DNA of 64,000 nt from Trueperaceae bacterium (lineage in GTDB: Bacteria; Deinococcota; Deinococci; Deinococcales; Trueperaceae): contig JBBDRK010000054.1 in assembly GCA_040905465.1 (NCBI GenBank), forward strand, positions 12,697 through 76,696, written 5' to 3'. Position numbers and translations under genes: made by a program. Below, in pieces: positions 6,503-56,628 of this stretch. Under the pieces are notes generated by a model. It saw only the letters and a program-made list of their open reading frames with translations, made no database searches and was not told the origin of the DNA. Position 1 is the first letter of the stretch; each line of letters starts with the position of its first letter.

Positions 6503-6916
6503 GTGATCGTGCTGGTCACATCGACGGACAACACAGACCTGAAGGCGAAGCTCTTTCGCGGCTTGGCCGACCCGACGCGGTTGGGGATCCTGGAAACGTT
6601 GGGCGACCGCCGACTGTGCGTCGGCGACATCATCGACGCCACCAATTTGAGCCAGTCGAACGTGTCCAATCACCTGTCGTGCCTCAAGGATTGCGGCCTG
6701 GTGAGCAGCGAGCGACAGGGCCGCAACGTCTACTACCGCATCAGCGACCGGCGGGTAAACGCGCTCCTGGAGCTTTCACGGGAGTTGCTTGCCGACGTCG
6801 CCAAGGGTGTTTACGAATGCACCCGTTACTCGCAGCCGTCGGGTTCGGCGAGCGTTGTCGAAGGGGAGCAGGCCGCCGACGTCGCCGTCGAAAGCCAGGA
6901 GATAGCTGGTGCCTGA
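6503..6916 (+). CDS. ArsR/SmtB metalloregulator, CmtR-like (start may be GTG 6509)
   Basis: [26 protein letters not shown] (alpha4 CxxxC as in CmtR); C-terminal Cys in YECTRY. Confidence 0.88.
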
Positions 6917-9128
6917 CGCTCTCACCCGCTCCCTGCCAGCGGCCAGGTTCGAAACCGTCGAGATCCCGGTGCTGGGCATGGACTGTGGCAACTGCGCGAA
7001 CAGCGTGCGCGGTGCAGTCGAGCGGATCCGGGGCGTCGAGTCGGTCGAAGTGCTGCTCGCCGGCCAGCGAGCCGTGGTGACTCTCGACGTGTCCCAGACG
7101 AACGAGCAGGAAATCCGTGGCGCGATTCGGTCGGTCGGTTATGAATCTCCGGAGCCCGACGCGGCCGACGGGGGCGCGGGAACGGAGCGCACTGTGGAGG
7201 CCGGGCGCGCGGCTGCCCTCAGCCGGTCCGCCCTGGCGCTGATGAGCCTCGTCTTCGGCGTGGTGCTGCTGGTGGTGGTAGTGGGCGAATGGCTGGGCGC
7301 CTCCGCTGCACTGACCGAGCGCGTGCCGCTCTGGCTGGGCGCGCTGCTGGTGGCTGCCTTCGGCTTTCCGGTGTTCCGCAAGGTAGCGGCCAGCTTGCTG
7401 CGTGGGCGAATAGTCTCGCACACCCTGATGAGCAGCGGGGCGATGGCCGCCCTGGCGATAGGCGAGTGGGTTACTGCGGCATTGGTCGTGTTCTTCATGC
7501 GCGTCGGCGACTACGCCGAGAGTTTCACCACCGAGAGGGCCAGGCGCTCGCTTCGCGACCTGACGGCGCTCGTCCCCAAGACGGCCCGGATCGAGCGAAG
7601 CGAATTGGTGGAAGAAGAGGTTCCGGTCGATGAATTGCGGCGGGGAGACCTGGTGGTCGTCCGGCCGGGTGAGACGATCCCTGTCGACGGCGAGGTGATC
7701 AGCGGCAGCGCAACTGTCGATCGCGCCGCGCTGACCGGGGAGTCGCTGGCGGTCGAGGTCACGCCGGGAACGCGAGTTTTCGCCGCGACCGTCGCCCGGC
7801 TCGGCAGCTTGCGGGTCCGGGTGGACGGCGTAGGTCGCGACACCACGTTCGGCCAGGTGCTCAGGCAGGTTGAACGGGCCGAGGCCAACCGCGGCGATAC
7901 CCAGCGGCTGGCGGACCGGTTCGCCGCCTGGTACCTGCCGGTGGTGGCGACAATCGCCGTTGCCACCTACTTGGTGCGCGGCGATCTGCTGGCGGCGGTT
8001 GCGGTCACTGTGGTCGCCTGCTCGTGCGCGTTCGCACTGGCGGCTCCGGTCGCGATGCTGGCGTCGATCGGTGCGGCCGCCAAGCGGGGCCTGCTGATCA
8101 AGGGCGGGAAGTATATCGAGGCTCTGGCCAGGGCCGACGTGCTTCTGATCGACAAGACCGGAACGGTGACGTCCGGACGGCAGCGGCTCAGCGACGTGAT
8201 GCCGCTGGCGGGTCGGACCGAGCAAGGAGTGCTGGAGTTGGCGGCAGCGGCCGAACGCGACAGTGAGCACTCGCTGGGACGGGCGGTTGTCCGCGCTGCC
8301 GAAGAACGCGGGCTGACACCGATCCGGTCCGAGGCCTTCGAGGCCATGCCGGGCTGGGGCGTTCGCGCCGCGGTAGCTGGCCGAACGGTAGAGGTCGGTT
8401 CTCGGCGACTGCTGCCGGGTCCGCTCCTCTCCGATGGCGTCCTGGCGAGGTCCGCAGCCAGGCTGGAGAACCAAGGCAAGACGCTGCTGTTCGTGCTGGT
8501 CGATGGTGAACCGGCCGGTCTGCTGGCGACCAGCGATACCTTGCGCCCCGGCGTGGCAGCCGCCATCGAAGCCGCCCGCGGGATGGGGATCCGCCGTGTA
8601 GAACTGCTTACCGGTGATAACCGGCGCAGCGCCCAGGCGGTCGCCGCCGAATTGGGTATCGCTTACCGCGCCGAGCTGCTGCCCGGGGAGAAGCTCGAAG
8701 CCGTGAAAGAACACCAGGCCGCTGGCAGGACCGTAGTGATGATCGGAGATGGAGTCAACGACGCCCCGGCGCTCGCCCAGGCAGACGTTGGCGTTGCCAT
8801 GGGCGCGGCCGGAACCGACGTGGCGATCGAAACGGCTCACGTGGCCTTGATGAGCGACGATTGGAGTCGCCTGCCGGAGCTCTTTTCCATCGCCAGGCGG
8901 ACGATGGGCGTTGTGCGGCTGAACATCGGTTTTACCGCGGTCTACAACCTCATAGGCATTTCACTCGCCGCTCTCGGATTCCTGCCGCCCATCTTCGCGG
9001 CGGCGCTGCAGTCGCTTCCCGACCTCGGCATCATGGGCAACTCGGCACGCCTGCTCCGCCAGGACGCTCCGCGAACGGCGCGCCCCAGCCCCGCCGCCGT
9101 GCTGGAATCACCGGTTGCACAGCCGTGA
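6909..9128 (+). CDS. Heavy-metal P1B-type ATPase with CSC motif
   Basis: [45 protein letters not shown]. Confidence 0.95.
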
Positions 9129-9216
9129 TGGAACGAAACGGTCGTTAGGCGTGCCTCGATCACCTGCGGCCGGCCACGGTTCGTGAGGGGCTTCGCTCCG
9201 TGTTCCCGGGAGGTCG

Positions 9217-10194
9217 ATGAAGCCACACGGACACAGTCACGATAATCTTCACGATAATCTTCACGATAATCAGGTAGCCGGGGCCAGCGACGGGCGAATC
9301 CTGGGCACGGTAGCCCTGAACCTGCTGCTGACCGTCGCCCAGGCCGTGGGCGGGTTCATCGCTGGGTCGGTGGCGCTGATGGCCGACGCCCTGCACAATC
9401 TCAACGACGCCATGGCCCTGGTGATCGTTTATGCAGCGCGCCGCATCAGCCGCCGCAGCCCCGACCGAACGCGTACGTTCGGTTACCGCCGAGCGCAAGT
9501 TGTCGGCGCCACCATCAACCTCGTCGCGCTGGCGGTGGTTGGGCTCTTCCTGGCCTACGAGTCGCTACTGCGACTCTTCGAACCCAGGGAGGTGGACGGA
9601 TGGATCATGATCGGGCTGGCCGGTGTTGCGCTGCTGGTCGACGCGATCACAGTGCTGCTGCTTTTCACGATGCGGCGCGGAAGCGTCAATGTGCGGGCCG
9701 CGTTCGCGCACAACCTCAGCGACGCACTGGCGTCGCTGGCGGTGTTGAGCGGCGGGATCGCGATTCTCACGCTTGGCTGGAACTGGTTGGACGGGTTCCT
9801 GTCACTCCTGATCGTCGGCTACATTTTCTGGCAGGTGGCGCGGATGCTGCCGGAGACGTTGCGGGTACTGATGGAGAGCACGCCGGCAGGACTCGACCTG
9901 AACGAGGTCGTTTCGGCGATGACGGTCATCGAAGGCGTGCAGGACGCCCACCACCTGCACGTCTGGTTGCTCGACGAGAACAGGTGCGCGCTGGAAGCGC
10001 ATGTGGTGATCGGGAGCGAACAGGTGACACGGATGGAGAAGATCAAGGGGGAGATCAGGCAACGCTTGCGAGAGGAGTTCGCCATCACCCACACCACGCT
10101 CGAACTCGAGCTCCCCGAGACCGCCGGTGAAGCCGGCCACGATACCGCGCTTGTGTCCGAGCATTGCAGCGATCCTCGACCCGCGGACGGTTGA
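9217..10194 (+). CDS. czcD: Cation diffusion facilitator (CzcD-like Zn/Co/Cd exporter)
   Basis: His-rich N-terminus, ADALHNLND, TFGYRR, HNLSD, HHLHVW. Confidence 0.88.
   Translation: MKPHGHSHDNLHDNLHDNQVAGASDGRILGTVALNLLLTVAQAVGGFIAGSVALMADALHNLNDAMALVIVYAARRISRRSPDRTRTFGYRRAQVVGATINLVALAVVGLFLAYESLLRLFEPREVDGWIMIGLAGVALLVDAITVLLLFTMRRGSVNVRAAFAHNLSDALASLAVLSGGIAILTLGWNWLDGFLSLLIVGYIFWQVARMLPETLRVLMESTPAGLDLNEVVSAMTVIEGVQDAHHLHVWLLDENRCALEAHVVIGSEQVTRMEKIKGEIRQRLREEFAITHTTLELELPETAGEAGHDTALVSEHCSDPRPADG
9238..9271 (+). repeat. 12-bp tandem repeat encoding HDNL
   Basis: CACGATAATCTT twice, plus partial CACGATAATC. Confidence 0.9.
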
Positions 10195-10197
10195 CGG

Positions 10198-10596
10198 ATG
10201 AAGCGGATGCCTGAGAACGAGGCCGCGGAGAATACCCTCGTCAGCTTCGTCCGGTCGAGCGAGCGACGAGTTGCCGGTGAACGCCTGCAGGTGTGGAAAT
10301 CCGAAGCTACGGGGCGGGAGTTCGAGGTCCGCGAGTCCAACTCGTACGCGCTCGGCGCTGATCTGACGCCGGGGTCGCCCGGGTACGTCACCTACGCCGG
10401 CAGCGCACCGACGGTTACCGAGCGGCCGTTGCCACGTAGCGAACGCCTGCGCCGGTACAACCGGCAGCGGATGCTGGCGCAGCAGTCGCAAGGGGAAGCG
10501 CGGCGGAAAGGGTCGTCGTTCCCGGTGGGCTGGCTGCTCGTGATGGTGCTGCTGCTGGCGATCTCGTGGGCGCTGTTCTCGCCGGCGGGCCGATAG
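10198..10596 (+). CDS. Hypothetical protein with C-terminal transmembrane helix
   Basis: 132-aa ORF directly after czcD; hydrophobic WLLVMVLLLAISWALF. Confidence 0.55.
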   Translation: MKRMPENEAAENTLVSFVRSSERRVAGERLQVWKSEATGREFEVRESNSYALGADLTPGSPGYVTYAGSAPTVTERPLPRSERLRRYNRQRMLAQQSQGEARRKGSSFPVGWLLVMVLLLAISWALFSPAGR

Positions 10597-10702: not shown

Positions 10703-13309
10703 ATGGCACCGCTCGACGAGTACCGCAAGAAACGGGACTTCCGGCGCACGCCGGAGCCGGCCGGGCAGGTTTCCGCCTCGCCCGGAGAGGGCGGCGGACT
10801 CTTCGTGGTGCACAAGCACGCGACACAGCGGCTGCACTTCGACCTGCGGCTCGAGCAAGACGGCGTGCTGCGCAGTTGGGCCGTGCCGAAGGGGCCCAGT
10901 CTCGATCCCGGCGAGAAGCGCCTGGCGGTAGAGGTCGAGGATCATCCGCTCGAGTACGGCGAGTTCGAGGGTGTGATTCCCGAAGACGAGTACGGCGGCG
11001 GGACGGTCATGCTCTGGGACCGCGGTCATTGGCGGCCCCGCAAGAAGCCGAGCGACGACCGGCTCGACTTCGAGCTCGAAGGGCACAAGCTGACCGGTGC
11101 CTGGACGCTCGTGCGGATGAGCGGCGAACGGAGCGACGACGGCAAGAACTGGCTGCTCATCAAGCGGAGCGACGAGAGCGGCGCGAACGACGCTACCGAC
11201 GCGGCCGATACGGTCGACGCGAGTGTCATCACCGGCCGCACCATGCGGGAGATAGCTAGCGACCGAGACGCGATCTGGACCGCCAAGGGATCGCAGTCCC
11301 CGTCGCGCCCGCAGGCTCCGGATGCCGGGCGACTAGCGGGTTCTCGCAAGAGGGGGTTGGCCGCGGACCCCCAGCCGCAGCTCGCGAGCCTGGTGGACGA
11401 AGCTCCCGTCGGCGATGACTGGCTCCACGAGATCAAGTTCGACGGCTACCGCATCCTGGCGCGGCTCGAGCGCGAAGGTGACGAGCTAACCGCCAGGTTG
11501 CTGAGTCGCAACGGCAAGGACTGGACCGACCGGTTCGCCAAACTCGCGCCGGTGCTCGCCAGGCTGCCTGCCGACAGCGCTCTCGTCGACGGCGAAGTGG
11601 TCGCCTTTTCCGCCGACGGCAGCAGCAGCTTCCGAAGGCTGCAGGAGGCTCTCAGCGAAGGACGCACCGGTCACCTCGTGTATCAGGCGTTCGACCTGCT
11701 GTACCTGGGCGGCTACGACCTCACCGCCACTCCGTTGTTGGAACGCAAGCGCGCCTTGGCCGGGCTACTGGCGGGAGCCAGTCTGGGCGGCAGTGGAACA
11801 GTTCGCGTCACCGATCACCAGGTGGGAAAGGGACCGGCCTTCTTCGAGCAGGCGTGCGGACTCGGCCTGGAGGGGATCATCAGCAAGCGGCGCGACGCAC
11901 CCTATCGCCCGGGCCGGGGCAAGGACTGGGTCAAGGTCAAGTGCACCCGGCAGGAGGAGCTGCTGATCGGCGGTTTCAGCGACCCCTCTGGCTCGCGCGC
12001 AGGTTTCGGCGCCCTGCTGCTGGGCGGCTATGACGAAAGCGGAAAACTGGTCTATGCCGGCAAGGTCGGCACCGGCTTCAGTGACCGCCATCTGCGGGAG
12101 CTGCACGGCAGGCTCAGAGAGCTGGAGGTAGCAGAGGCGCCCTTCGATTCGGCGCCGTCCGGCCGGGGGGTGCACTGGGTTCGGCCGGTATTGGTGGCGG
12201 AGGTTGAGTTCACAGAGTGGACGCGCGACGGCGCCTTGCGGCACCCCAGTTTTCGGGGGTTGCGCGAGGACCGGGAGCCGGAGGAGATAAGGATGCCAGC
12301 GGCGATGTCGGTAAGCAAGCGGACGAAAGCCGGTTCCGGCAACTCCAAACGCGACGAGGGTGTCGAGAGCGGCAAACCCGTAGGCGAGCGCTCGGAACGA
12401 CGACCCAGGAAGGGTGAGGCCCAGGTGGCCGGGGTGCGGCTGAGCAGCCCCGACAGGGTGCTCTACCCCGAGCAGGGTGTCACCAAGCTGGCGCTGGCCC
12501 AGTACTACGAGGACATCGCCGAGTGGATCCTGCCCCACCTGGCTAACCGGCCGCTCTCGCTAGTGCGTTGCCCGCAAGGTCGCGAGAAGCAGTGCTTCTT
12601 CCAGAAACACCCGGACGAGGCGCTGGCCAAGGACACGGCAAGGGTCGAGATCGAGGAGTCCGACGGGCCGGCTCCGTACCTCTACGCGCGCACCCTGGCC
12701 GACATCGTTTCTCTGGTTCAGGCCGGTGTCCTCGAGTTGCACGTGTGGGGTAGCCGAGTGGATGATGTCGAGCGACCCGACATTCTTGTTTTCGACCTCG
12801 ACCCGGCGCCCGACGTTCCCTGGTCGGAGATGCTGCGCGCAGTGCGCGAGCTGCGTGATCGGCTGGCCGAGCTGGGCCTGGAGAGCTTCCCGCGCACCAC
12901 TGGAGGCAAGGGGCTGCACCTGGTGGTGCCGCTGGAGCGGGGACCGAGGTGGGACGAGGCCAAGGAGTTCGCCCATGCCGTGGCCAAGGCGCACGAGAGC
13001 GACGACCGCCGCCGGATCACCACCAATATGTCCAAAGCCAAGCGCCGCGGAAAGATCTTCCTCGACTACCTGCGCAACGGCCGCGGTGCCACAGCGATCG
13101 CCTCCTACTCCACCCGCTCGCGCGAAGGCGCGCCGGTGGCGGTGCCGGTGCGCTGGGACGAGCTTGGCGGAGCGATGCGGGCGGATCGCTACGACATAAG
13201 CAACCTGAGGCGGCGCCTGGCGGCGCTGAGATCCGATCCGTGGGCGGAGTTCGATGAGGCGCGTCGACCGCTCACCAAGAAGATGCTCGCCCGGGTCGGC
13301 CCGAAGTAG
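10703..13309 (+). CDS. ligD: NHEJ DNA ligase D (phosphoesterase-ligase-polymerase)
   Basis: PE domain (HFDLRLE, SWAVPKGPS), ligase EIKFDGYR and EGIISKR, Pol domain FDLDP, TTGGKGLH, IFLDYLRN. Confidence 0.97.
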   Translation: MAPLDEYRKKRDFRRTPEPAGQVSASPGEGGGLFVVHKHATQRLHFDLRLEQDGVLRSWAVPKGPSLDPGEKRLAVEVEDHPLEYGEFEGVIPEDEYGGGTVMLWDRGHWRPRKKPSDDRLDFELEGHKLTGAWTLVRMSGERSDDGKNWLLIKRSDESGANDATDAADTVDASVITGRTMREIASDRDAIWTAKGSQSPSRPQAPDAGRLAGSRKRGLAADPQPQLASLVDEAPVGDDWLHEIKFDGYRILARLEREGDELTARLLSRNGKDWTDRFAKLAPVLARLPADSALVDGEVVAFSADGSSSFRRLQEALSEGRTGHLVYQAFDLLYLGGYDLTATPLLERKRALAGLLAGASLGGSGTVRVTDHQVGKGPAFFEQACGLGLEGIISKRRDAPYRPGRGKDWVKVKCTRQEELLIGGFSDPSGSRAGFGALLLGGYDESGKLVYAGKVGTGFSDRHLRELHGRLRELEVAEAPFDSAPSGRGVHWVRPVLVAEVEFTEWTRDGALRHPSFRGLREDREPEEIRMPAAMSVSKRTKAGSGNSKRDEGVESGKPVGERSERRPRKGEAQVAGVRLSSPDRVLYPEQGVTKLALAQYYEDIAEWILPHLANRPLSLVRCPQGREKQCFFQKHPDEALAKDTARVEIEESDGPAPYLYARTLADIVSLVQAGVLELHVWGSRVDDVERPDILVFDLDPAPDVPWSEMLRAVRELRDRLAELGLESFPRTTGGKGLHLVVPLERGPRWDEAKEFAHAVAKAHESDDRRRITTNMSKAKRRGKIFLDYLRNGRGATAIASYSTRSREGAPVAVPVRWDELGGAMRADRYDISNLRRRLAALRSDPWAEFDEARRPLTKKMLARVGPK

Positions 13310-13338
13310 GGAAGATGGCGTGATCAAAGGAAGGGGAG

Positions 13339-13557
13339 GTGAGTGACTTGACGACCGAATCTGTAGCTGCAAACGGTTCGCCCTGGTGGCTCGAGCCGGG
13401 GGTCGAGGAGTGCGAACTCTGCCTGCGAAGAGTTCACTACGAGGTGCTGTACCACTGCAGCGAGTGCGACCGGCCGCTGTGCCCGAGCTGTAGCGTCGCC
13501 GTGCTGGAGCGGCGGGTAGTCGTGTGCGAAGGCTGCCACACCGCCGAGTCCGGCTGA
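13339..13557 (+). CDS. Small 8-Cys zinc-finger-like protein
   Basis: CELC, HCSEC, CPSC, CEGCH; GGAGG RBS; TGATG stop/start overlap with ku. Confidence 0.75.
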   Translation: MSDLTTESVAANGSPWWLEPGVEECELCLRRVHYEVLYHCSECDRPLCPSCSVAVLERRVVVCEGCHTAESG

Positions 13558-14333
13558 TGGCGGCGCGGGCGATGTGGAAAGGGGTGATCCGCTTCGGCGG
13601 GGCGGCCGTGCCTGTGAAGCTCTACTCGGCGCTGGAGGACCGGAGCGTGCACTTCCGGATGCTGCACGAGACCGACCATGTGCCGGTGAAGCAGCAGATG
13701 ATCAACCCCGAAACCGACCAGGAGGTGCCGTACGCCGATGCCCTGCGCGGCTTCGTGACCGACGACGGCGACCTGGTGATACTCGAGCCGGAGGAGCTCG
13801 AATCGGTCGAACCAGAAGCCTCGCGCGACATCGATATCTTGAGTTTCCTGCCACCGGAAGCGATCGATCACCGCTGGTATCTGCGCCCCTATTATCTCGG
13901 CCCCGACGGTCCCAGCGAGCCGTACTTCGCGCTCGTGACGGCGCTGGAGCGTGCCGGCCGCGAGGGCCTGGCGCGCTGGACCATGCGCAACAAGGAGTAT
14001 GTCGGGGCGTTGCGCCTGCACCGCGGCTACCCGATGCTGATCGCCTTGCGCAATGAGCAGCAGGTTGTACCGGTCGACGCACTGGAGGCGCCGGCCGGAG
14101 CCAAGCTCGACGACAAGGAGCTGGGTATGGCCCGGCAGCTCATGGAGATGCTGGAGGCGTCGTTCGAGCCGGAGGAGTACCGGGACGAGTACCGAGCCCG
14201 GGTGCTGGAGCTGATCGAGACCAAGGCCAAAGGCGGCGAGGTCGAAACCAGGCGGCGCCGCAAGACCCCGCGCTACGAGGACCTCTCCGGTGCCCTGCGG
14301 GCCAGCCTCGAGAAGGAGCGGATCCGTGCCTGA
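13557..14333 (+). CDS. ku: NHEJ Ku protein, copy 1
   Basis: RAMWKGVIRFG...VPVKLYSA, PYYLGPD, FEPEEYRDEY, LRASL. Confidence 0.92.
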   Translation: MAARAMWKGVIRFGGAAVPVKLYSALEDRSVHFRMLHETDHVPVKQQMINPETDQEVPYADALRGFVTDDGDLVILEPEELESVEPEASRDIDILSFLPPEAIDHRWYLRPYYLGPDGPSEPYFALVTALERAGREGLARWTMRNKEYVGALRLHRGYPMLIALRNEQQVVPVDALEAPAGAKLDDKELGMARQLMEMLEASFEPEEYRDEYRARVLELIETKAKGGEVETRRRRKTPRYEDLSGALRASLEKERIRA

Positions 14334-15204
14334 AGCGAAGAAATCGGAACGACCCCGCTTGCGGCCGTTCTGGTCGGGAACCATAGCGTTCGGACTGGTG
14401 AGCCTGCCGGTGAGCCTGTTCGTGGCGAATCGCGGCAAACGGGTTTCGCTGCGCCTGGTCGACGACGACGGCACGCCCCTCAGCCGCCGTTACCTCTGCC
14501 CGGCCGAGGAGAAGCCCCTGTCGAACGACGAGATCGTCCGCGGCTATGAAGTCGCAAAGGACGAGTTCGTGGTGGTGAGCGACGACGAACTCGACGCCCT
14601 GGCTCCGGAGAAGTCGCAGGAGATAGACCTGCGACGCTTCGTCGCCCTCAGCGGGATCGACCCGGTTTACTTCGAGCGGGCCTACTTCCTGGCGCCCGAC
14701 AAGGGGGCATCGAAGGCGTACCGGCTCCTGGCTCGGGCGATGGAGGAGAGCGGGCGCGCGGGCGTGGCCACTTTCGTGATGCGCGGCAAGGAGTACCTGG
14801 TGGCGATCATCGCCGAGAAGGGGATTCTTCGGGCGGAGACGCTGAGATTCCACGACGAGTTGCGTTCGCCCGAGCAGGTAGGGCTGCCCGCGCTGGAGGA
14901 GGTGGAGGCCGCGCGGGTCGAAGAGTTAGAACGGGAGATCGACGCGCTCGCCGACGAGGAGCTCGACCGGTCCGAACTGGCCGACCGCCAGGCAGACAGG
15001 ATGCTGGAGCTGGTGCAGCGCAAGCTCGAGAGCGGCGACGACGTGGTAGCGGCGCCGGAGGAGCTCGAACCCGAGGAGGGCGACCAGACGATCGACCTGA
15101 TGCAGGTCCTCAAGCAGAGCCTCGAGGAGATCGCGCCGGAGGGAGATCAAGCGGCCGACTCCGGCCGGCGCTCGAAACATCGTGAAGGGAGAGGTGTGAG
15201 ATGA
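14326..15204 (+). CDS. ku: NHEJ Ku protein, copy 2
   Basis: RPFWSGTIAFGLVSLPV, IDPVYFERAYFLAP, KAYRLL, IDLMQVLKQSL. Confidence 0.93.
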   Translation: MPEAKKSERPRLRPFWSGTIAFGLVSLPVSLFVANRGKRVSLRLVDDDGTPLSRRYLCPAEEKPLSNDEIVRGYEVAKDEFVVVSDDELDALAPEKSQEIDLRRFVALSGIDPVYFERAYFLAPDKGASKAYRLLARAMEESGRAGVATFVMRGKEYLVAIIAEKGILRAETLRFHDELRSPEQVGLPALEEVEAARVEELEREIDALADEELDRSELADRQADRMLELVQRKLESGDDVVAAPEELEPEEGDQTIDLMQVLKQSLEEIAPEGDQAADSGRRSKHREGRGVR

Positions 15205-15710
15205 ACACGCACGCGACGAGCGAAGGGATACTGGGCAGCAACGAAGGCAAGAAGCGCGAGAAGATCGTGGAACTGTTGAAACGGGCCTACTTCGCGGAAC
15301 TGGAAACGGTGATGAACTACGTGACCAACTCGATCAATCCCGACGGGGTGCGGGCGCAGGAGATAATCGAGGCGCTCGAGCAGGACATCGGCGAGGAGCT
15401 GCAACACGCCCAGCAGTTCGGCCGGCGAATCAAGGAGCTCTACGGCGTGGTCCCGGGCTCGCACGAGTTCCAGGCGAGCCAGCAGAGCCTCCAGCCGCCC
15501 GCCAAGCAGACCGACGTCGTGCACGTGATCAGAGGGGTGATCGAGGCCGAGACCCGAGCGATCGAACTGTACACGCGCATCGTCGACGAGACCGACCGGA
15601 TCGACCCGGTCACCAACGATATGGTCATCGGCATCCTGCGCGACGAGCAAGGGCATCGCCGGCTATTCGAGGGCTTCCTGCGCGAGTACGAGATGGAAGG
15701 CCTTGCCTGA
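15201..15710 (+). CDS. Ferritin-like (bacterioferritin/DPSL-type) diiron protein
   Basis: E...EELQH and EAE...DEQGH paired motifs; ATGA overlap with ku2. Confidence 0.85.
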   Translation: MNTHATSEGILGSNEGKKREKIVELLKRAYFAELETVMNYVTNSINPDGVRAQEIIEALEQDIGEELQHAQQFGRRIKELYGVVPGSHEFQASQQSLQPPAKQTDVVHVIRGVIEAETRAIELYTRIVDETDRIDPVTNDMVIGILRDEQGHRRLFEGFLREYEMEGLA

Positions 15711-15888
15711 ACAGGACTCAATCTGAACCCGCTTTACGCGGGGTAGAGTGGCCTCGATGCGTGCCGGTAGAGCCGGGCGGTGTCGGCTGGCGCGGCAGAG
15801 GTAGGAGCGCGTGGGCGCCGGCGTTGTCGTCGGCGTATCCTTCAGCGGTCTTACCGGCGCGAGCGATCGCCAGATGACGGGAGTGCCG

Positions 15889-18258
15889 ATGCACGATTTG
15901 CAGGAAGAGACGGCGGTCAGCCGGCCCGGAAGCGAAGATGCGCTATTCGAACGGCACCTGCGTATGGTACGGGTTCTGCTGCTGGCGTTGCTGGCCGTCC
16001 TGCTGCTCATCATCGGATTGAACCTCGCGCTACTCGGGACGGACGGCCTCAGTAGAAGTGGAACCGGCCTGCTGCTGGTCGGGATGTCGATACTGGTGCT
16101 CCTCGCGCTTGCGCGAGTGCGCGTCAGGCGCCTCGGTCAGGCCGTGGGCCTGGTCGTCTTCGGCACGCTCGCCCTGCTGGCTCTGGAAACGGCGGAGGCG
16201 GGCATCTCCGCGAGTACCACCTTCCTCTTCGCCTATACCGTACCCATTGCCTTTGCGGGGCTGCTGGTCGGGCGCCTGGCCCTCGTCGGCACTGCGTTGG
16301 CGAGCGTCGGCATCGTCGTGGGAGTCCACCTGCTGGAGCGCGCCGGCAGCGGTCTCGTCGCTACCGACCCCGACGTCGGCTCGCCGGCCACAGTTGTCAT
16401 AGTGTTCGTCCTGATCGTCGGCTTGTTGTCGTTGGTGCTGGAACGGTTCGGGGTGGAACTCCGGAACGCCCACCAGGCTGCGTTGCGCCGTCAGAGCGAG
16501 CTGGCGCGACTGGTGGCAGTATTGGAGCGCGAAATCGAGGAGCGAAAACAGGCGGAAGTCGCGCGCGACCGCAGTGAGGAGCGGCTGAGCATAACGTCCG
16601 AGGCGGTGGGTATCGGTACCTGGAGTTGGGACCTGGAAACCGGCGAGCTCGTCTGGTCCGATTCAATGAAGGATCTCCTGGGAGTCCCTCGTGACGTAGT
16701 TCCCTCACTCGAACTCTTCATCGAGCTTGTCCATCCGGAGGATCGCCCGGTACTGGCAGAGATGAGTGCGTCACCCGACGAGTCGGTCGAGACAAGCGAG
16801 ATGACCTACCGCCTGCTCAGACGCGACGGCGGCGTGGCATGGGTCGCCGCCCGCTATCGCACCTTTCCAGGCGAGGACGGGCGCGGGCAGCAAGTCGGAG
16901 CGATGTACGAGATAACCGACCGCATGGAGGCCGCCCGAGAGCGGGAAAGCCTTCTCGAAAGGGAACGATCGGCGCGAGCGGCGGCCGAATCTTCGGGTGC
17001 CAAGCTCGCCTTCCTGGCGGAAGCGAGTCACCTGCTCGGGTCGTCTCTCGACTTCGCCGAGACGTTGAGTCGCCTCGGCGGGCTGATGGTTCCCCGCTGG
17101 GCCGACTGGTGCGCGGTAGATATCCTGGATGCCGACGGCAACGCGCAGCGCCTGTCGGTAACGCACCAGGATTCCTCGAAAGTCGAGGCTGCTCACGAGA
17201 TTCAACGGCGGTACCCGTCGCAACCGGACCGGCCCGGAACGGCCGCGACGCTGGCCAGTGGCGTCACCCAGTACCTGCCCGATATCAGCGATGCCGACCT
17301 GCAGGGGGTAGCCCAGGACGGGGAGCACCTGAGAAGACTCCGCGAATTGGGGTTTTCCTCGCTGGTGGTAGTCCCGCTGAACCTGCGGGGTAGAACGTTG
17401 GGAGCACTCAGCCTGGTTACGGCCGAGTCGGGCAAGCGTTACACGCAGGAGGATGTGCTGTTCTTCGAGGAGCTTGCGGGGCGCGCTGCTGTGGCCGTGG
17501 CGCACGCCCGGCTGTTCGCCGAGGTGCGGGAACTGAACCAGGAGCTCGAACGGCGGGTTGAACAGCGCACCAGCGAACTCAGCGACGCCCTGGGTGAGCT
17601 GGAGACCTTCGCCTACAGCGTCTCGCACGACTTGCGCGCGCCGCTGCGCGGCATAGACGGCTTCAGCCAGGCCCTGCTGGAGGATTATGCGGGCCGGTTG
17701 GACGACGAAGCCGTGCAGTATCTCGATCGGATACGCGGCGGGGCGCGCCGCATGGGGGAACTCATAGACGACCTGCTCAACCTCTCGCGCCTGTCGCAAG
17801 GGGAACTGAACGAGGAACAGGTAGATCTCGGCGCGCTCGCAGCCGAGATCGTGGCCGGCCTTCGGGCCGAGCAACCGGACCGTGATGTAACCGTCGAGAT
17901 AGCTCCGGAGCTGCACGCGCGCGGAGACTACCGGCTGCTACGAATCGCGCTCGAGAACATCATCGGCAACGCCTGGAAGTTCACCGCCCTGGCCCAGCAG
18001 CCGCGTATCGAGGTCGGGGCCACCAACGAGAATGGCAGTACGGTCTACTTCGTGCGCGACAACGGTACCGGCTTCGATATGAGCTACGTCGACAAGCTGT
18101 TCGCCCCGTTCCAACGGCTCCATTCACCCCAGAAGTTCGAGGGAACGGGTATTGGACTGGCTACGGCTCAACGGGTGCTGCGCCGTCACGGTGGCCGAAT
18201 CTGGGCCGAGAGCGTCGTGGACGATGGAGCCACCTTCTACTTCACCATCGGAACGTAA
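15889..18258 (+). CDS. Membrane PAS/GAF sensor histidine kinase
   Basis: About 6 TM helices, PAS (VHPEDR), GAF (ADWCAVD), SHDLRAPL, GNAWKF, GTGIGLA; start uncertain. Confidence 0.92.
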   Translation: MHDLQEETAVSRPGSEDALFERHLRMVRVLLLALLAVLLLIIGLNLALLGTDGLSRSGTGLLLVGMSILVLLALARVRVRRLGQAVGLVVFGTLALLALETAEAGISASTTFLFAYTVPIAFAGLLVGRLALVGTALASVGIVVGVHLLERAGSGLVATDPDVGSPATVVIVFVLIVGLLSLVLERFGVELRNAHQAALRRQSELARLVAVLEREIEERKQAEVARDRSEERLSITSEAVGIGTWSWDLETGELVWSDSMKDLLGVPRDVVPSLELFIELVHPEDRPVLAEMSASPDESVETSEMTYRLLRRDGGVAWVAARYRTFPGEDGRGQQVGAMYEITDRMEAARERESLLERERSARAAAESSGAKLAFLAEASHLLGSSLDFAETLSRLGGLMVPRWADWCAVDILDADGNAQRLSVTHQDSSKVEAAHEIQRRYPSQPDRPGTAATLASGVTQYLPDISDADLQGVAQDGEHLRRLRELGFSSLVVVPLNLRGRTLGALSLVTAESGKRYTQEDVLFFEELAGRAAVAVAHARLFAEVRELNQELERRVEQRTSELSDALGELETFAYSVSHDLRAPLRGIDGFSQALLEDYAGRLDDEAVQYLDRIRGGARRMGELIDDLLNLSRLSQGELNEEQVDLGALAAEIVAGLRAEQPDRDVTVEIAPELHARGDYRLLRIALENIIGNAWKFTALAQQPRIEVGATNENGSTVYFVRDNGTGFDMSYVDKLFAPFQRLHSPQKFEGTGIGLATAQRVLRRHGGRIWAESVVDDGATFYFTIGT

Positions 18259-18412
18259 CCGCAGGGGTGCACGTCCGGCAAGCGGGAGGCCCCGGGTAGC
18301 GCACCCGCCCGATCGGCGTCCGGCTCGGGCACTCCTGGCGATCATCGCTGCTCGTCGTCCAAGATCACCCAATCGGCTACCTGGTTACAATCGCCACAGG
18401 CTAGGAGGGAAC

Positions 18413-19078
18413 ATGTACTTCAGGGCGATGATCGCCGAGGCAGTCGGCACCTTCACGCTTGTTTTCGTCGGAGTAGGGGCGATAGCGAACGACGCAGGAC
18501 TCCTGGGAGTCGCGTTCGCCCATGGTCTGGCCATCGCCGTGATGGTAGCGGCCACGGCCGCCATTTCGGGTGGGCACCTCAACCCTGCCGTTACCATTGG
18601 CCTGCTGGCCACCGGCCGCATCGGTGCAGGCCGGGCGGTCGCCTACGTTAGCGCGCAGCTGTTAGGAGCGCTTGCCGCAGCCGGGCTGCTGCTGGCGGTC
18701 CTGCCAGACCTGGTGGTACCGATTGCGATCGGCACTCCTGCGCCGGGGCCCGACCTCGGTGCCGGTCAGGTGCTGGTGGTCGAAGGAGTGCTCACGTTCC
18801 TGCTGATGTTCGTGATCTTCGGCACGGCAGCGGTTCGGGCCGAGCCGCTGGTCGGTGGCCTCTTTATCGGGCTCACGGTCACGCTCGACATTCTCATGGG
18901 AGGACCGCTGACCGGTGCCGCGATGAACCCGGCCCGACACTTCGGTCCGGCGCTCTTCGCCGGTGGAGAGTATCTCGCCCAGTCCTGGATCTACTGGCTG
19001 GCCCCGGTGACCGGGTCGGTGGCGGCGTCGTTGTTGTACCACCACGTACTGAAGAGCCCCGCCGAAGCTGCCGAGTGA
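18413..19078 (+). CDS. Aquaporin (MIP family)
   Basis: SGGHLNPAVT and AMNPARHFGP; AGGAGG RBS. Confidence 0.95.
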   Translation: MYFRAMIAEAVGTFTLVFVGVGAIANDAGLLGVAFAHGLAIAVMVAATAAISGGHLNPAVTIGLLATGRIGAGRAVAYVSAQLLGALAAAGLLLAVLPDLVVPIAIGTPAPGPDLGAGQVLVVEGVLTFLLMFVIFGTAAVRAEPLVGGLFIGLTVTLDILMGGPLTGAAMNPARHFGPALFAGGEYLAQSWIYWLAPVTGSVAASLLYHHVLKSPAEAAE

Positions 19079-19149
19079 CTTAGGTCGCGCCCCGCTCTAT
19101 TCTCCGTTGCGCCCCCTGGTTAGTCTCGCAATGAAGGGGGCGCACCAAA

Positions 19150-19680
19150 ATGATCGAACACCAGGTCCAGCACGACCAGTCGAGTAACCGACCGGTGACG
19201 GCGGGTTACTCCGAGCAACCGGCACCGCTCGGTTCCTATGCCGGCTTCCTGGCGGCATTCGGGGCAGGCTTCCTCGGCTTCCTGGCGGCCAGCCGTAGGC
19301 TCGACCGGCCACTGCCCGAACGTTTCTCGACCCAGGACGTGCTTTTGCTCGGCGTGGCCACCCACAAGCTCACCCGCATCGTCACCAGAGATTGGGTGAC
19401 GAGCCCGCTTCGGGCCCCGTTTACCAGCTATGAAGGCTCGACTGGCGGCGGTGAGGTCAAGGAACGGCCACGTGGCCGGGGCTTCCAGCGCGCCACCGGC
19501 GAATTGCTCACCTGCCCGTGGTGCTTCGCGCCATGGACCGCCGCCGGACTCGGTTACGGGCTGGTATTGGCACCTCGGGGTACCCGCTTCGTAGCGACTT
19601 TGTTCGCTGCGGTTGCATTATCGGACTATCTCCAACACGGTTACAACCGGGTGAAGCAGCTGTCCACCTCTGGGAAATAG
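19150..19680 (+). CDS. DUF1360 family membrane protein
   Basis: ATHKLTR..TRDWVTSPLRAPF, GELLTCPWC. Confidence 0.85.
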   Translation: MIEHQVQHDQSSNRPVTAGYSEQPAPLGSYAGFLAAFGAGFLGFLAASRRLDRPLPERFSTQDVLLLGVATHKLTRIVTRDWVTSPLRAPFTSYEGSTGGGEVKERPRGRGFQRATGELLTCPWCFAPWTAAGLGYGLVLAPRGTRFVATLFAAVALSDYLQHGYNRVKQLSTSGK

Positions 19681-19858
19681 TGTGCCGAAGGGGTACCGCC
19701 GGCTGAGTCAGGTGTCACTCCGCACTCCTACCACATGCTTCTATCATGAACATAGTGTCATTCCTTACGGTGTCGAGCGTGGGCACAGCGGAATTGCATC
19801 ACAGGGGCTCGCGGGGACCGAGGAGGGTCTCGCAGCCCGGGCCCGGGGAGGAGTTGGG

Positions 19859-20269
19859 GTGGGGGAACCGTTCCTGCTGCTGATCGATGAGAATCCCGAC
19901 GACGTCTACCTGATGCTGCGGGAGTTGAGAAGGCTCGAGCCACATCTGCGGGTGCACGTCATAACCGATAGCGCGGTAGCGCTGTCTTACCTGCGGGAGA
20001 CGAACGAACTGCCGGCAGCTCTGCTGCTGGGGCTGAAGTTCATAAGGCTCTCCGGTCTCGAGTTGCTCGCCGAGATCCGCTCGTTGGAGCAGACTCGGAA
20101 CCTGCCGGTCGTGATGCTCACCGCCGGTCGCGAGGAGCGCGAACGGGTTTGTCGTGAGGTTACCGGATCGAAGCCGGTCGCCTGCTTGAACAAGCCGCTG
20201 GACCGCGGCCTGGTCGCGTCCACGCTCGACGCTCTCGGAATACGGGTCGTTCCCGCGTTGGCCGGCTGA
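19859..20269 (+). CDS. Single-domain response regulator, atypical (pseudo-receiver)
   Basis: LLLIDENPDD, LPVVMLT, LNKP; phosphoacceptor position reads LLLGLK instead of LLLDL. Confidence 0.75.
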   Translation: MGEPFLLLIDENPDDVYLMLRELRRLEPHLRVHVITDSAVALSYLRETNELPAALLLGLKFIRLSGLELLAEIRSLEQTRNLPVVMLTAGREERERVCREVTGSKPVACLNKPLDRGLVASTLDALGIRVVPALAG

Positions 20270-20364
20270 GGTTCTCGGCCCGCCGGCGCGGGCACGGGTA
20301 CACGGTACTCGCCTACGGTCGTCTCGCTTTACCGAGGCTAGCCTGAGCCGATGGGGAGGCAGAG

Positions 20365-21387
20365 ATGACCCGGCCAGACAGCTATCGACTAGACAGCAAC
20401 AGAACAGACGGCAACAGACCGGACAGCGACCTCCACGAGGCGGGACGAGTTCCCGCCGACATGGTGAGGCACCGCAGGTCCGGCGTCGCAAGCGCAATCC
20501 AGGAGGCCCCTCGCGTCGGCGAGAAGGTGCTCGATCGAAGCGGGGACTCTCTCATCGCCGCCGGCCGGGCGTTACACCAGATGGTGCTGCGCGGCGGAGA
20601 GCGGTCGCGCCGAACGGCTGATCTGCTGCACGGGACCTGGTTGGGTCACCCGCTGCATCCGGTACTCACCGACATCACCATCGGCGCCTGGACGTTCGGC
20701 GCCGTGTTCGACGGGGTCGGGGCCGTGACAGGGGATCGCCGCACGCAGCAGTTCGGTGACCGGCTCACCGCCATCGGTACCGCTTCCGCCATTCCGACCG
20801 CCCTGGCCGGAATTACCGACTACTCGACCGTTCCCAAACCCGCCGCCCGCACGGCGACAGTGCACGCCGTCCTCAACGGCACGTCGCTCGGTCTTTACGC
20901 CCTCTCGCTCTATCAGCGGAGGAAGGGGCGTCGCGGGAGCGGCCTGGCGTTGTCCGCCGTCGCTCTCGGGGCGACCATGTTCTCGGCATGGCTGGGTGGT
21001 CACCTCGTGTATCGCGACCGCGTCGGAGTCGACCACGGCGAGCGTTTCGACGGCCCTCGCCAGTGGACGGGCGTGCTGGAGGCGGGTGCACTCGAAGTCG
21101 GCGGGTCCAGACGGGTGGAGGTCGATGGCAAGGCGGTAATGCTTTACCGAGACAGCCGGCGGGTCTACGCGATCGGCGCTGTGTGCAGCCATGCAGCGGG
21201 CCCGCTGGAGGAGGGTGAGGTTCGGGGATGCTTCGTTCAGTGCCCGTGGCACGACTCTGTCTTCGACATGCGTGACGGCTCGTTGAAGCACGGCCCGGCT
21301 ACCGCTCCGCAAGCGGCATTCGAGACGCGGATCAGCGGCGGCCGGATCGAACTGAGGGTTGCCAACGAACCGGCCGGGACGCACTGA
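20365..21387 (+). CDS. DUF2231 membrane domain fused to a Rieske [2Fe-2S] domain
   Basis: LHGTWLGHPLHP, WLGGHLVY; CSHAAG...CPWHDS. Confidence 0.9.
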   Translation: MTRPDSYRLDSNRTDGNRPDSDLHEAGRVPADMVRHRRSGVASAIQEAPRVGEKVLDRSGDSLIAAGRALHQMVLRGGERSRRTADLLHGTWLGHPLHPVLTDITIGAWTFGAVFDGVGAVTGDRRTQQFGDRLTAIGTASAIPTALAGITDYSTVPKPAARTATVHAVLNGTSLGLYALSLYQRRKGRRGSGLALSAVALGATMFSAWLGGHLVYRDRVGVDHGERFDGPRQWTGVLEAGALEVGGSRRVEVDGKAVMLYRDSRRVYAIGAVCSHAAGPLEEGEVRGCFVQCPWHDSVFDMRDGSLKHGPATAPQAAFETRISGGRIELRVANEPAGTH

Positions 21388-55035: not shown

Positions 55036-55434
55036 ATGGGTGACGGCTACAAACGCCATAAGGGGGCGGTTGCTGAATTGCGCTACCACCTGATCTGGGT
55101 ACCCCGTAGACGCCGCAAGGTGCTTGCTGGCGCTGTCGCCGAACGACTTGAAATGCTGCTGAGAGAGAAAGCCGCAGAGCTTGGCGTGGAGATTGAACAC
55201 CTGGCGATTCAACCCGACCATCTCCACCTGTTCGTGAACGCGCCGCCGTCTTTAGCGGTAGCGCAGATTGTGTTTCGGCTCAAAGGTTATACCTCTCGCA
55301 TTATTAGGCAAGAGTTTGCGCACCTTAAACGGATGCCGAGCATGTGGACAACGAGCTACTTTGCGAGCACGGCGGGCAAAGTCTCAGCATCCACCATTGA
55401 GCGTTACATTCAGCAGCAGAGCACCCGAGCATGA
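55036..55434 (+). CDS. tnpA: Y1 HUH transposase
   Basis: YHLIWVP, DHLHL (HUH), LKG, SYF, IERYI catalytic Tyr. Confidence 0.96.
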
Positions 55435-56628
55435 CGACGCACCGCAAGGTCTACCGCTTCCGGGTTGACCCAACCCCGGCTCAGGCTGAGCAGATGTACA
55501 GCATGGCGGGCGCCAAGCGGTTCGTGTTCAATTGGGCCCTGGCACGGCGCAAAGACCACTACGCCGAACACGGTGAGGGTCTTTCGGCGAAGGTGCTTTC
55601 GGCTGAGCTGACCGCTCTTAAGAAGCAGCCTGATAGCGAGTGGCTTAAGGGTGTGGATTCGCAGCTTCTACAGCAAGCCCTGAGGGATGTTGATCGGGCT
55701 TTTCAAAACTTTTTCGACAAGCGCGGCCGCTTCCCGCGCTTTAAGTCCAAGCGTCGTGAGATACCCTCGTTTCGCATCCCGCAGCGGGTCAAGGTCGAGG
55801 CTGGCAAAGTGTATGTCCCGAAAGTCGGTTGGGTGAAAGCACGTCAGTCTCAGCCGGTAGACTGCCCGACCAAGAGTGCAACGTTCAAGCGAGATGCCAC
55901 GCGACGTTGGTACGTGACCCTCACGGCTGAGTTCGAGATGCCCGAGGTACCGCTGCAACCTGCCGAACCTAACAACGTTGTCGGTATCGACCTCGGCTTA
56001 AGAGATTTCGCGGTGCTGAGCACAGGCGAGCGCATCGCCCCGCCCAAGCACTACCGGCAGTCAGAGCGCCGCTTAGCGAAAGCCCAGCGACGCCTGTCAC
56101 GTCGCCAGAAGGGAAGCAAAAACCGTGACAAAGCCCGCTTGACCGTCGCTCGAGTACACCTGAAAATCAGGAACCAACGTGCGGACTTTCTCCATAAGTT
56201 GACTACCTCGCTGGTTCGGAGTCGTGACGGGCTGTGCATCGAAGACCTCTCGTTTAGTGGCATGGCGAAAACCAAGCTTGCCAAAAGCGTGCTGGACGCT
56301 GGCCTCGCTGAGTTCCGCAGGCAGCTTGAGTACAAGTCGGTTTGGAACGGCAGGCACCTGGCAGTGATACACCGTTGGTATCCGAGCACCAAGCTTTGCC
56401 AAAAGTGCGGCACGCTAAACACCCTGACGCTAGCCGACAGAGTGTGCACCTGCACTTGCGGCGCTCATTACGACAGAGACTCAAACGCAGGCTCAGAACA
56501 TCCGAACTGAAGGTTTAAGGATGATGGAGGCTGCCGGACAGACAGACTCCCTAAACGCTTGTGGACGCGACGTCAGCCCTCGCTGTGTCGAGGCGGTTGC
56601 GGTTGAAGCAAGAATCCCCCCGCTTTAG
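55431..56628 (+). pseudogene. tnpB: RNA-guided nuclease TnpB, frameshifted near the C-terminus (uninterrupted ORF ends 56510)
   Basis: GIDLG, IEDL, Zn finger, DRD; removing one G at 56490-56491 restores NAAQNI...EARIPPL* ending at 56628. Confidence 0.85.

What the first reader, a model, noticed from the sequence alone, without database searches (positions are those of the whole stretch)
10703..15710. Five-gene NHEJ operon: ligD, 8-Cys Zn finger, ku, ku, ferritin-like
Seen: ligD is followed within 30 bp by four genes with overlapping stops and starts, so this is probably one transcript. Established: minimal bacterial NHEJ is a homodimeric Ku plus LigD, and Deinococcus radiodurans has no canonical Ku. 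Inference: this is an expanded, possibly imported break-repair module in a Deinococcota genome. It would couple end joining to an accessory Zn protein and to iron/peroxide control.
Basis: partly seen in the sequence, partly recalled or inferred. Interest (0 to 1): 0.75.

Follow-up and report, generated by a model that had tools for sequence, protein, structure and literature searches.

The report
Two-subunit bacterial Ku repair clamp
This DNA-break repair operon encodes two different Ku proteins whose sequences indicate that they work as one lopsided two-subunit ring, as in human cells and unlike the symmetric ring of textbook bacteria; a small zinc-finger gene often travels with them, and the ferritin gene is only a local neighbour.

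Summary
All five genes and their overlaps are real. The conserved unit is the kuA-kuB pair (my labels): adjacent in 85 of 86 KuA-seeded and 71 of 80 KuB-seeded loci across several phyla, forming two clean clades separate from Sinorhizobium Ku3/Ku4. Two sequence results point to a heterodimer. (1) A cross-subunit bridge contact known from Ku cryo-EM co-varies between KuA and KuB (ranks 2 and 3 of 50,850 pairs), not within either chain. (2) Ku-Ku synapsis residues are split reciprocally between the two chains, so only an A/B ring has one complete synaptic arm; the other arm keeps the DNA-gripping residues. Inferred: a polar, non-filament-forming Ku. The 8-Cys gene (FYVE-like fold, no named family) lies directly before kuA in 88 of 130 loci and was found nowhere else, but is often lost. 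The ferritin-like gene occurs only in this genus; its overlap with kuB is local. This scan noted the zinc-finger-ku-ku trio twice before on other DNA; those notes, as displayed, do not mention the co-variation or arm partition.

The parts
10703..13309 (+). ligD, 868 aa, phosphoesterase-ligase-polymerase
   Evidence: PF13298, PF01068, PF04679, PF21686 and TIGR02776/02777/02778/02779 over cut-off; ligase and polymerase motif residues present (motif identities recalled)
13339..13557 (+). 72-aa 8-Cys zinc-finger protein (WW-x-x-G, four CxxC), FYVE/RIM-like predicted fold, acidic; optional companion of kuA
   Evidence: Family alignment; 610 representatives at E<=0.001, and 147 of the best 150 are 110 aa or shorter; model pLDDT 86.9; best fold matches RIM/FYVE fingers, Z 5-6
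13557..14333 (+). kuA (upstream Ku, 258 aa; my label, unrelated to Streptomyces KuA)
   Evidence: TIGR02772 243 bits; own clade 100/100
13599..13607 (+). KuA hairpin-1 G15-A16-A17, in place of the L-V-N synapsis loop
   Evidence: Aligned to B. subtilis L30-V31-N32; Leu at this column in 0% of 125 KuA
13665..13667 (+). KuA His37, inferred partner of KuB Cys58 across the bridge
   Evidence: Inter-chain coupling rank 2 of 50,850; H and C agree in 102 of 108 pairs
14118..14141 (+). KuA helix alpha3 (E188-L195), canonical sling half of the synaptic face
   Evidence: 4 of 4 key residues kept in 124 of 125 KuA and 0 of 135 KuB
14326..15204 (+). kuB (downstream Ku, 292 aa); lacks the C-terminal Rho_N-type tail that both congeners carry
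   Evidence: TIGR02772 245 bits; own clade 100/100; tail in congeners
14395..14400 (+). KuB hairpin-1 L24-V25, canonical barrel half of the synaptic face
   Evidence: Leu in 99% of 135 KuB; 4 of 4 barrel residues in 128 of 135 KuB and 0 of 125 KuA
14497..14499 (+). KuB Cys58 (bridge)
14863..14865 (+). KuB Arg180, equivalent to B. subtilis R188, supplied in trans to DNA-binding motif 2
   Evidence: Basic in 100% of KuB and 0% of KuA
15201..15710 (+). Ferritin-like (bacterioferritin/DPSL-like) gene, 169 aa; genus-level neighbour, not part of the conserved module
   Evidence: PF00210; below DPSL cut-offs; 3 of 101 family genomes; 2 of 180 loci

Best explanation
This is an NHEJ module whose Ku ring is a dedicated KuA/KuB heterodimer with two unlike arms. 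Known from solved bacterial Ku: each arm is the barrel of one subunit plus the sling of the other. Shown here in sequence: the two genes travel together, form separate clades and co-vary at a cross-subunit contact. Barrel B plus sling A holds the full Ku-Ku synapsis surface, and barrel A plus sling B holds the basic residues of DNA-binding motif 2. Inferred: the ring loads on a DNA end with a fixed polarity, grips the duplex with one arm and pairs head-to-head through the other arm with the ring on the second end. It cannot build the long filaments of homodimeric Ku, and it recruits LigD mainly through KuB's canonical C-terminal helix. In many relatives KuB alone carries a small helical Rho_N-type tail, placed like the SAP domain of Ku70. 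The zinc-finger protein is most likely a dispensable Ku-binding adaptor or cap (my odds about 45%; binding untested). The ferritin-like gene is a neighbouring stress gene of this genus, at most co-transcribed here.
For: Pairing: kuB follows kuA in 85 of 86 loci, the miss being a contig end. kuA precedes kuB in 71 of 80 KuB-seeded loci, and 8 of the 9 misses have under 300 bases upstream. In an unselected Halomonadaceae sample 30 of 31 Ku-bearing genomes (of 201) have two Ku matches. The pair are the only Ku matches in 36 of 50 genomes. Tree: KuA and KuB each 100/100; their distances correlate, r=0.815, 0 of 2000 permutations. Co-variation: the cross-protomer contact His35-Cys48 of PMC12658125 ranks 2 and 3 of 50,850 between the chains, but 44,474 and 6,304 of 48,841 within them. 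Single Kus carry H-C (16 of 42) or D-N (16 of 42) there, and the window splits these as A-H37/B-C58 and B-D46/A-N50. KuA has Cys there in 0 of 108; independent pairs go 5.7 the same way and 0 opposite, median p 0.031. Partition: all synaptic residues listed in PMC12784961 give barrel B>A (0 of 221 shifts as high) and sling A>B (2 of 221); K23 and K36 are basic in 98% and 97% of KuA against 1% and 1% of KuB; R188 in 0% against 100%. L30G abolishes B. subtilis Ku oligomers without loss of DNA binding (PMC12784961), and KuA has Gly there. Rho_N-type tail: 76 of 134 KuB, 0 of 124 KuA, 1 of 44 others.
Against: No protein was made, bound or modelled as a complex. The DNA-motif-2 barrel set alone is not significant (40 of 221 shifts as low). 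Of 8 literature contacts tested, only His35-Cys48 ranks at the top in both orientations; most of the other 7 are unremarkable. The co-variation set is small (effective size 65), and the second and third couplings tested on the tree are not significant (median p 0.125 and 0.25). The sequences are kin and were gathered by similarity to the window's proteins. PMC12784961 calls helices alpha2 and alpha3 peripheral and poorly conserved, and one Mtb helix double mutant did not disrupt filaments (PMC12658125), so KuB's altered alpha3 need not block B-B contacts. Which arm faces the break is inference; the paper offers two synapsis models. ligD is directly upstream in only 56 of 130 loci. No Ku column co-varies significantly with zinc-finger presence (best median p 0.22).
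Confidence: 0.72

Rival explanations
1. KuA and KuB are two independent homodimers with divided jobs (one caps ends, one bridges them) kept together by co-regulation.
For: Both pass the full-length Ku model and keep the ring core and a C-terminal helix. A hairpin-less homodimer would still bind DNA (L30G). Streptomyces paralogues each work alone in vitro (PMC5124664).
Against: The bridge contact co-varies between the chains and not within them. An A-A ring would most often pair H-N or D-N and a B-B ring D-C; H-N and D-C occur in 0 of 42 single Kus. Neither chain alone has a whole synaptic face.
Confidence: 0.1
2. The pair is a heterodimer but functionally symmetric; the sequence differences are drift or fix heterodimer specificity and give no polarity.
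For: The DNA-motif set alone is not significant. Several DNA-contact residues (H19, R126, Y128, R161) are kept in both chains. Alanine models kept the synaptic arrangement in PMC12784962.
Against: The losses are near-absolute and reciprocal at the published interface (0 of 221 shifts), and hairpin mutants abolish oligomers in two species.
Confidence: 0.13
3. One reading: a five-gene system that couples end joining to a zinc protein and to iron/peroxide control.
For: All five genes overlap or nearly so here, and both congeners keep the ferritin-like gene within about 1 kb downstream of kuB.
Against: The ferritin-like gene is in 3 of 101 family genomes, all one genus, and 2 of 180 loci (many are short downstream). 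One congener has an opposite-strand rhodanese gene between them. The family is large on its own (8000 hits).
Confidence: 0.05

Closest known systems
Sinorhizobium meliloti ku3-ku4 operon with LigD4 (PMC6379672; passages and section 26 read)
   Same: Two tandem ku genes that always co-occur, proposed to form a heterodimer on genetic grounds. The tandem pSymB pair, which I take as Ku3/Ku4 from their tails, shows a weaker echo of the split: one lacks the hairpin Leu, the other has an altered alpha3.
   Different: Not orthologous: Ku3/Ku4 group with S. meliloti Ku2 (100/96), apart from KuA and KuB, and are 28% identical to them. It is a minor second system there, whereas KuA/KuB are the only Ku matches in 36 of 50 genomes. 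No 8-Cys gene in the fetched ku3-ku4 loci.
Homodimeric Ku-LigD of Bacillus subtilis and Mycobacterium (PMC12784961, PMC12658125, PMC12784962; passages read, plus sections 16-17 of the first)
   Same: Same Ku core family, bridge contacts and C-terminal helix, and a three-domain LigD.
   Different: One gene, two identical arms, filaments on DNA. Here the synapsis and DNA-grip residues are split between two genes.
Eukaryotic Ku70/Ku80
   Same: Heterodimeric ring that binds ends with a defined polarity, lacks the bacterial filament interface and has a small helical tail on one subunit (PMC4889933, PMC12784961 passages).
   Different: No vWA domain here. The pair are bacterial-type Ku; no eukaryotic sequence was put in my tree, so a separate origin is inferred from family membership only.
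FYVE / RIM / Rab-effector zinc fingers (for the 72-aa protein)
   Same: Eight Cys and a similar predicted fold (best Foldseek E 7e-3; Z 6.0, rmsd 1.9 over 50 residues to the RIM finger).
   Different: Stand-alone, acidic (net -7), bacterial, with a WW-x-x-G lead-in and no R(R/K)HHC lipid motif in 150 of 150 listed hits (motif recalled). Z 6 is a middling match.

Membership tests
Bacterial Ku (TIGR02772, PF02735) | Score over the curated cut-off, both proteins | tested here: met
   243 and 245 bits against 150
Canonical homodimeric bacterial Ku | Hairpin GLVN and alpha2 plus alpha3 synaptic residues in one chain | tested here: not met
   Barrel set complete in 0 of 125 KuA; sling set complete in 0 of 135 KuB; 39 and 36 of 44 other Kus
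Canonical homodimeric bacterial Ku | Homodimer in solution | not testable with these tools
   Needs purified protein
LigD | PE, ligase and polymerase domains | tested here: met
S. meliloti Ku3-Ku4 system | Two ku genes in tandem that co-occur | tested here: met
S. meliloti Ku3-Ku4 system | Orthology to Ku3 and Ku4 | tested here: not met
   Separate supported clades
S. meliloti Ku3-Ku4 system | Both genes needed in one pathway | not testable with these tools
   Needs deletions
S. meliloti Ku3-Ku4 system | EcfG/RpoE2 promoter | not tested
   Only a sigma-70 scan was run, with 0 sites
Ku70/Ku80 | N-terminal vWA domain | tested here: not met
   Only PF02735 on either protein
Ku70/Ku80 | Heterodimer with polarity | tested here: inconclusive
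   Supported by co-variation and residue partition; not shown physically
FYVE domain | Eight zinc ligands in CxxC pairs | tested here: met
   Eight Cys invariant in 35 of 35 rows
FYVE domain | FYVE fold | tested here: inconclusive
   No Foldseek match at E<=0.001; Z 5-6; Pfam below cut-off
FYVE domain | R(R/K)HHC phosphoinositide motif (recalled) | tested here: not met
   0 of 150 listed hits; the window protein lacks it
DPSL (DPS-like ferritin) | Score over NF009990 or NF040955 cut-off | tested here: not met
   57.9 against 158 and 54.9 against 250; the protein has no Cys

The most novel reading that the evidence does not exclude
Bacteria evolved, apart from both Ku70/80 and Ku3/Ku4, an obligate polar Ku heterodimer that splits end synapsis and duplex gripping between its two arms and cannot form filaments. 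It carries a SAP-like tail on one subunit and takes a FYVE-fold zinc finger as a third subunit, for instance to cap the non-synaptic arm or release the trapped ring after ligation.
Probability: 0.33. Interest if true: 0.85.

Novelty: new variant of a known kind. Interest (0 to 1): 0.7.

Why it matters
Recent cryo-EM papers propose that filament formation by symmetric Ku may be universal in bacteria (PMC12784961), and the one proposed bacterial heterodimer rests on genetics alone (PMC6379672). This family predicts a natural exception with residue-level expectations. It is the sole Ku in many culturable Halomonadaceae, so the question of why a Ku homodimer becomes a polar heterodimer can be tested with two small proteins. 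A non-filament Ku would also separate true end synapsis from stacking along DNA, which those papers could not fully resolve. The zinc finger would be a rare dedicated accessory factor of bacterial NHEJ.

Tried and rejected
RNA: no RNA holder was listed. No KuA relative was confirmed in viral contigs. The zinc-finger alignment gave no pattern for a metagenome scan, so its exclusivity was tested by genome searches only. A single-sequence search for the finger found just 2 proteins; the profile found 610. The Atlas gave only unnamed clusters as best hits. Ku columns that track zinc-finger presence: none significant (output partly cut). Sigma-70 promoter and terminator scan: nothing above chance. 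Recent import: GC is flat, no tRNA in the window, no integrase among 40 chosen ORFs scanned, the only mobile-element hit being about 40 kb away; direction of transfer was not determined. Rejected: orthology to S. meliloti Ku3/Ku4; the ferritin gene as a module part; FYVE lipid binding; DPSL membership. Literature searches listed no paper on this pair or the finger by title or abstract start; I opened 8 papers in passages and no supplements. The library lacks most subscription papers, and the Ku trees in the figures and supplements of PMC4889933 and PMC6379672 could already contain these clades.
Full report
Observation. The five ORFs are as described: ligD 10703-13309, a 72-aa protein with four CxxC pairs at 13339-13557, two ku genes at 13557-14333 and 14326-15204, and a ferritin-like gene at 15201-15710. 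Junctions are +29, -1, -8 and -4 bases. LigD carries phosphoesterase, ligase and polymerase domains, and both Ku proteins pass TIGR02772. I call them KuA (upstream) and KuB (downstream); these labels are mine and unrelated to Streptomyces KuA/KuB. They are 28% identical and are the genome's only Ku matches. An Nqo15 hit in the window, 82-83% identical ferritin homologues named Trueperaceae and the tree place the genome in Trueperaceae, Deinococcota.

What is conserved. I examined 86 loci: 80 fetched with KuA from named genomes and 6 from relatives. kuB follows kuA in 85 of 86, the miss being a contig end; ligD is in 58 and the ferritin gene in 2. In the reverse test, 80 metagenome loci fetched with KuB have kuA upstream in 71. 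Eight of the 9 misses have under 300 bases upstream, and the ninth ends its upstream ORF in a stretch that by eye resembles a KuA tail. Hosts include Gammaproteobacteria, Gemmatimonadota, Acidobacteriota, Myxococcota, Thermodesulfobacteriota, Planctomycetota and Trueperaceae. In samples not chosen for the pair, 31 of 201 Halomonadaceae genomes have Ku and 30 of these have two. Of 251 Deinococcota genomes 12 have Ku, all in the window's family; 11 have two in tandem and one lies at a contig edge. In 50 of the 80 genomes behind the KuA loci, the pair are the only Ku matches in 36. The pair is uncommon in Gammaproteobacteria at large: 29 of 300 genomes have Ku (this tally includes three unpublished genomes not otherwise used), and the full-length Kus of 23 of them fall outside both clades.

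Phylogeny. In a 90-row tree (23 KuA, 23 KuB, 44 others; a subset of 304 aligned rows) KuA and KuB are each one clade at 100/100. The tandem Kus of S. meliloti pSymB, which I identify as Ku3 and Ku4 from the tails described in PMC6379672, group with S. meliloti Ku2 elsewhere. This is therefore a second, separate paired-Ku lineage. KuA and KuB distances correlate over 72 pairs (r=0.815, 0 of 2000 permutations); kin share history, so this alone shows only joint inheritance.

Evidence that A pairs with B. The Mtb Ku structure has His35 of one protomer meeting Cys48 and Cys51 of the other at the bridge (PMC12658125, passages). I ran coupling analysis on 137 paired rows (effective size 65) and noticed this contact among the top hits; I then tested the 8 cross-protomer pairs named in that passage. 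His35-Cys48 ranks 2 (KuA H37 with KuB C58) and 3 (KuB D46 with KuA N50) of 50,850 inter-chain pairs. The same columns rank 44,474 and 6,304 of 48,841 within chains. Mutual information gives ranks 2 and 35. The other 7 pairs are mostly unremarkable, the best being ranks 214 and 770. Single-copy Kus carry H-C in 16 of 42 and D-N in 16 of 42 at these columns, and never H-N or D-C. Across 108 non-redundant pairs, KuA His and KuB Cys are both present in 48, both absent in 54 and discordant in 6, with 10 changes each on a tree built without those columns. Independent pairs go 5.7 the same way and 0 the other, median p 0.031, and KuA itself has Cys there in 0 of 108. Two further top couplings did not reach significance on the tree (median p 0.125 and 0.25).

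Evidence for unlike arms. In B. subtilis Ku the dimer-dimer face is built from hairpin 1 and helix alpha2 of one protomer and helix alpha3 of the other. DNA-binding motif 2 is built from H19-K23, K36, K106, R126, Y128 and R161 of one protomer and R188 of the other (PMC12784961). L30G abolishes oligomers but not DNA binding, and L13A/V14A does likewise in Mtb. Over 125 KuA, 135 KuB and 44 other Kus, four barrel residues I picked are complete in 128 KuB, 0 KuA and 39 others, and four alpha3 residues in 124 KuA, 0 KuB and 36 others. To avoid picking, I scored every residue the paper lists against 42 other Kus: the barrel set favours KuB (0 of 221 circular shifts as high), the sling set favours KuA (2 of 221), and the combined score is beaten by 0 of 221. 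K23 and K36 are basic in 98% and 97% of KuA against 1% and 1% of KuB; R188 in 0% against 100%. The DNA-motif barrel set as a whole is not significant (40 of 221). Thus barrel B plus sling A makes one full synaptic arm with a weakened DNA grip, barrel A plus sling B makes a full DNA-grip arm without the synaptic surface, and neither homodimer would assemble a whole synaptic face. Polarity, head-to-head pairing and lack of filaments are inferred from this. Caveats: alpha2 and alpha3 are called peripheral in the paper, one helix mutant in Mtb kept filaments, and two synapsis geometries are open.

Tails. KuB keeps the canonical C-terminal helix that binds LigD in B. subtilis (PMC4889933); KuA's is partly altered and follows a basic linker (median +6 against -5). 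A Rho_N-type tail occurs on 76 of 134 KuB, 0 of 124 KuA and 1 of 44 others. A SAP domain is known on Ku70 and on one Streptomyces Ku (PMC5124664); the likeness of Rho_N to SAP is recalled. The window's KuB lacks the tail that both congeners have, and those congeners separate kuB from the ferritin gene by about 100 bases or by an opposite-strand rhodanese gene. The kuB-ferritin overlap is therefore probably a local deletion product (inference; the DNA alignment did not resolve a breakpoint).

The zinc finger. It defines an unnamed family: eight invariant Cys, an invariant Asp and a WW-x-x-G lead-in, with 610 representatives at E<=0.001, and 147 of the best 150 are small stand-alone proteins. 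The model (pLDDT 86.9) resembles RIM/FYVE fingers at middling scores; the protein is acidic and lacks the lipid motif. Of 130 scorable loci (of 161), 88 have it before kuA: 39 with ligD directly upstream and 49 without. Its stop overlaps the kuA start by one base in 39 of 88. It was found only there: one copy in 30 of 50 genomes; 22 of 201 Halomonadaceae, 21 before an intact kuA and one before a truncated kuA; 3 of 251 Deinococcota. The last two searches scored only 31 and 25 candidates per genome. It is dispensable over time: 36 of 67 rows have it, with 15 changes on the tree, and both congeners lack it. A Ku-binding adaptor is my best guess; nothing here shows binding.

The ferritin-like gene. 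It is PF00210, below DPSL cut-offs, weakly like DPSL and bacterioferritin structures, and belongs to a large family. It occurs in 3 of 101 family genomes, all this genus, and in 2 of 180 loci scanned with a profile (some loci repeat a place and many are short downstream). It is not part of the conserved module.

Origin. Patchy spread and nearness to gammaproteobacterial copies fit old transfer, as is general for NHEJ (PMC7719229). GC is flat, the 14 Trueperaceae rows need 2 changes on the tree, and one clade is not rejected (p-AU 0.058). Donor and direction are undetermined.

Prior knowledge. A bacterial Ku heterodimer was proposed from genetics for Ku3-Ku4 (PMC6379672; passages and section 26). 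Six searches listed nothing on this lineage or the finger; PMC11936186 passages mention no such pair. I read passages of 8 papers and no supplements, and subscription papers are mostly missing. Two earlier notes of this scan describe the finger-ku-ku trio in other genomes; I had reached that reading before seeing them. A word search for the synapsis partition found nothing.

Verdict. A real NHEJ operon whose core is a separate lineage of paired Ku, most likely a polar heterodimer (0.72), with an optional unnamed zinc-finger companion and an incidental ferritin neighbour. New variant of a known kind; interest 0.7.

Noticed in passing
window 6503-10194 (+): ArsR regulator, heavy-metal P-type ATPase and CDF cation-efflux genes lie just upstream of ligD; not found at this place in either congener's fetched region.
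   Followed up: partly
window 10198-10596 (+): 132-aa ORF with a C-terminal hydrophobic stretch and no family match, 106 bases before ligD; no match in the 86 related loci.
   Followed up: partly
window 15865-21387 (+): PAS/GAF histidine kinase, response regulator and DUF2231-Rieske genes follow the ferritin gene and are syntenic in both congeners; aquaporin and DUF1360 genes are only in the window.
   Followed up: partly
L103 (S. meliloti pSymB ku3-ku4): Ku3 has Glu at the hairpin Leu and Ku4 has an altered alpha3, a weaker and possibly convergent form of the same split. One pair only.
   Followed up: no
L261, L245 and L065 (Halomonadaceae): kuB is interrupted after about 46 matched residues, with the rest about 36 kb away on the same contig, suggesting an insertion into kuB.
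   Followed up: no
L263 (G415) and L021: Decaying modules: a zinc finger before a truncated kuA, and a truncated zinc-finger remnant before an intact pair.
   Followed up: no
L017 4376-5239 (G007): Only the polymerase part of LigD matches before the Ku pair in this relative; L019 lacks a match to the phosphoesterase domain.
   Followed up: no
window 55431-56510 (+): IS605-type TnpB gene.
   Followed up: no
window 45115-47385 (-): UvrD/PcrA helicase about 30 kb from the operon; a search listing links Ku to UvrD1 in mycobacteria. Probably incidental.
   Followed up: no
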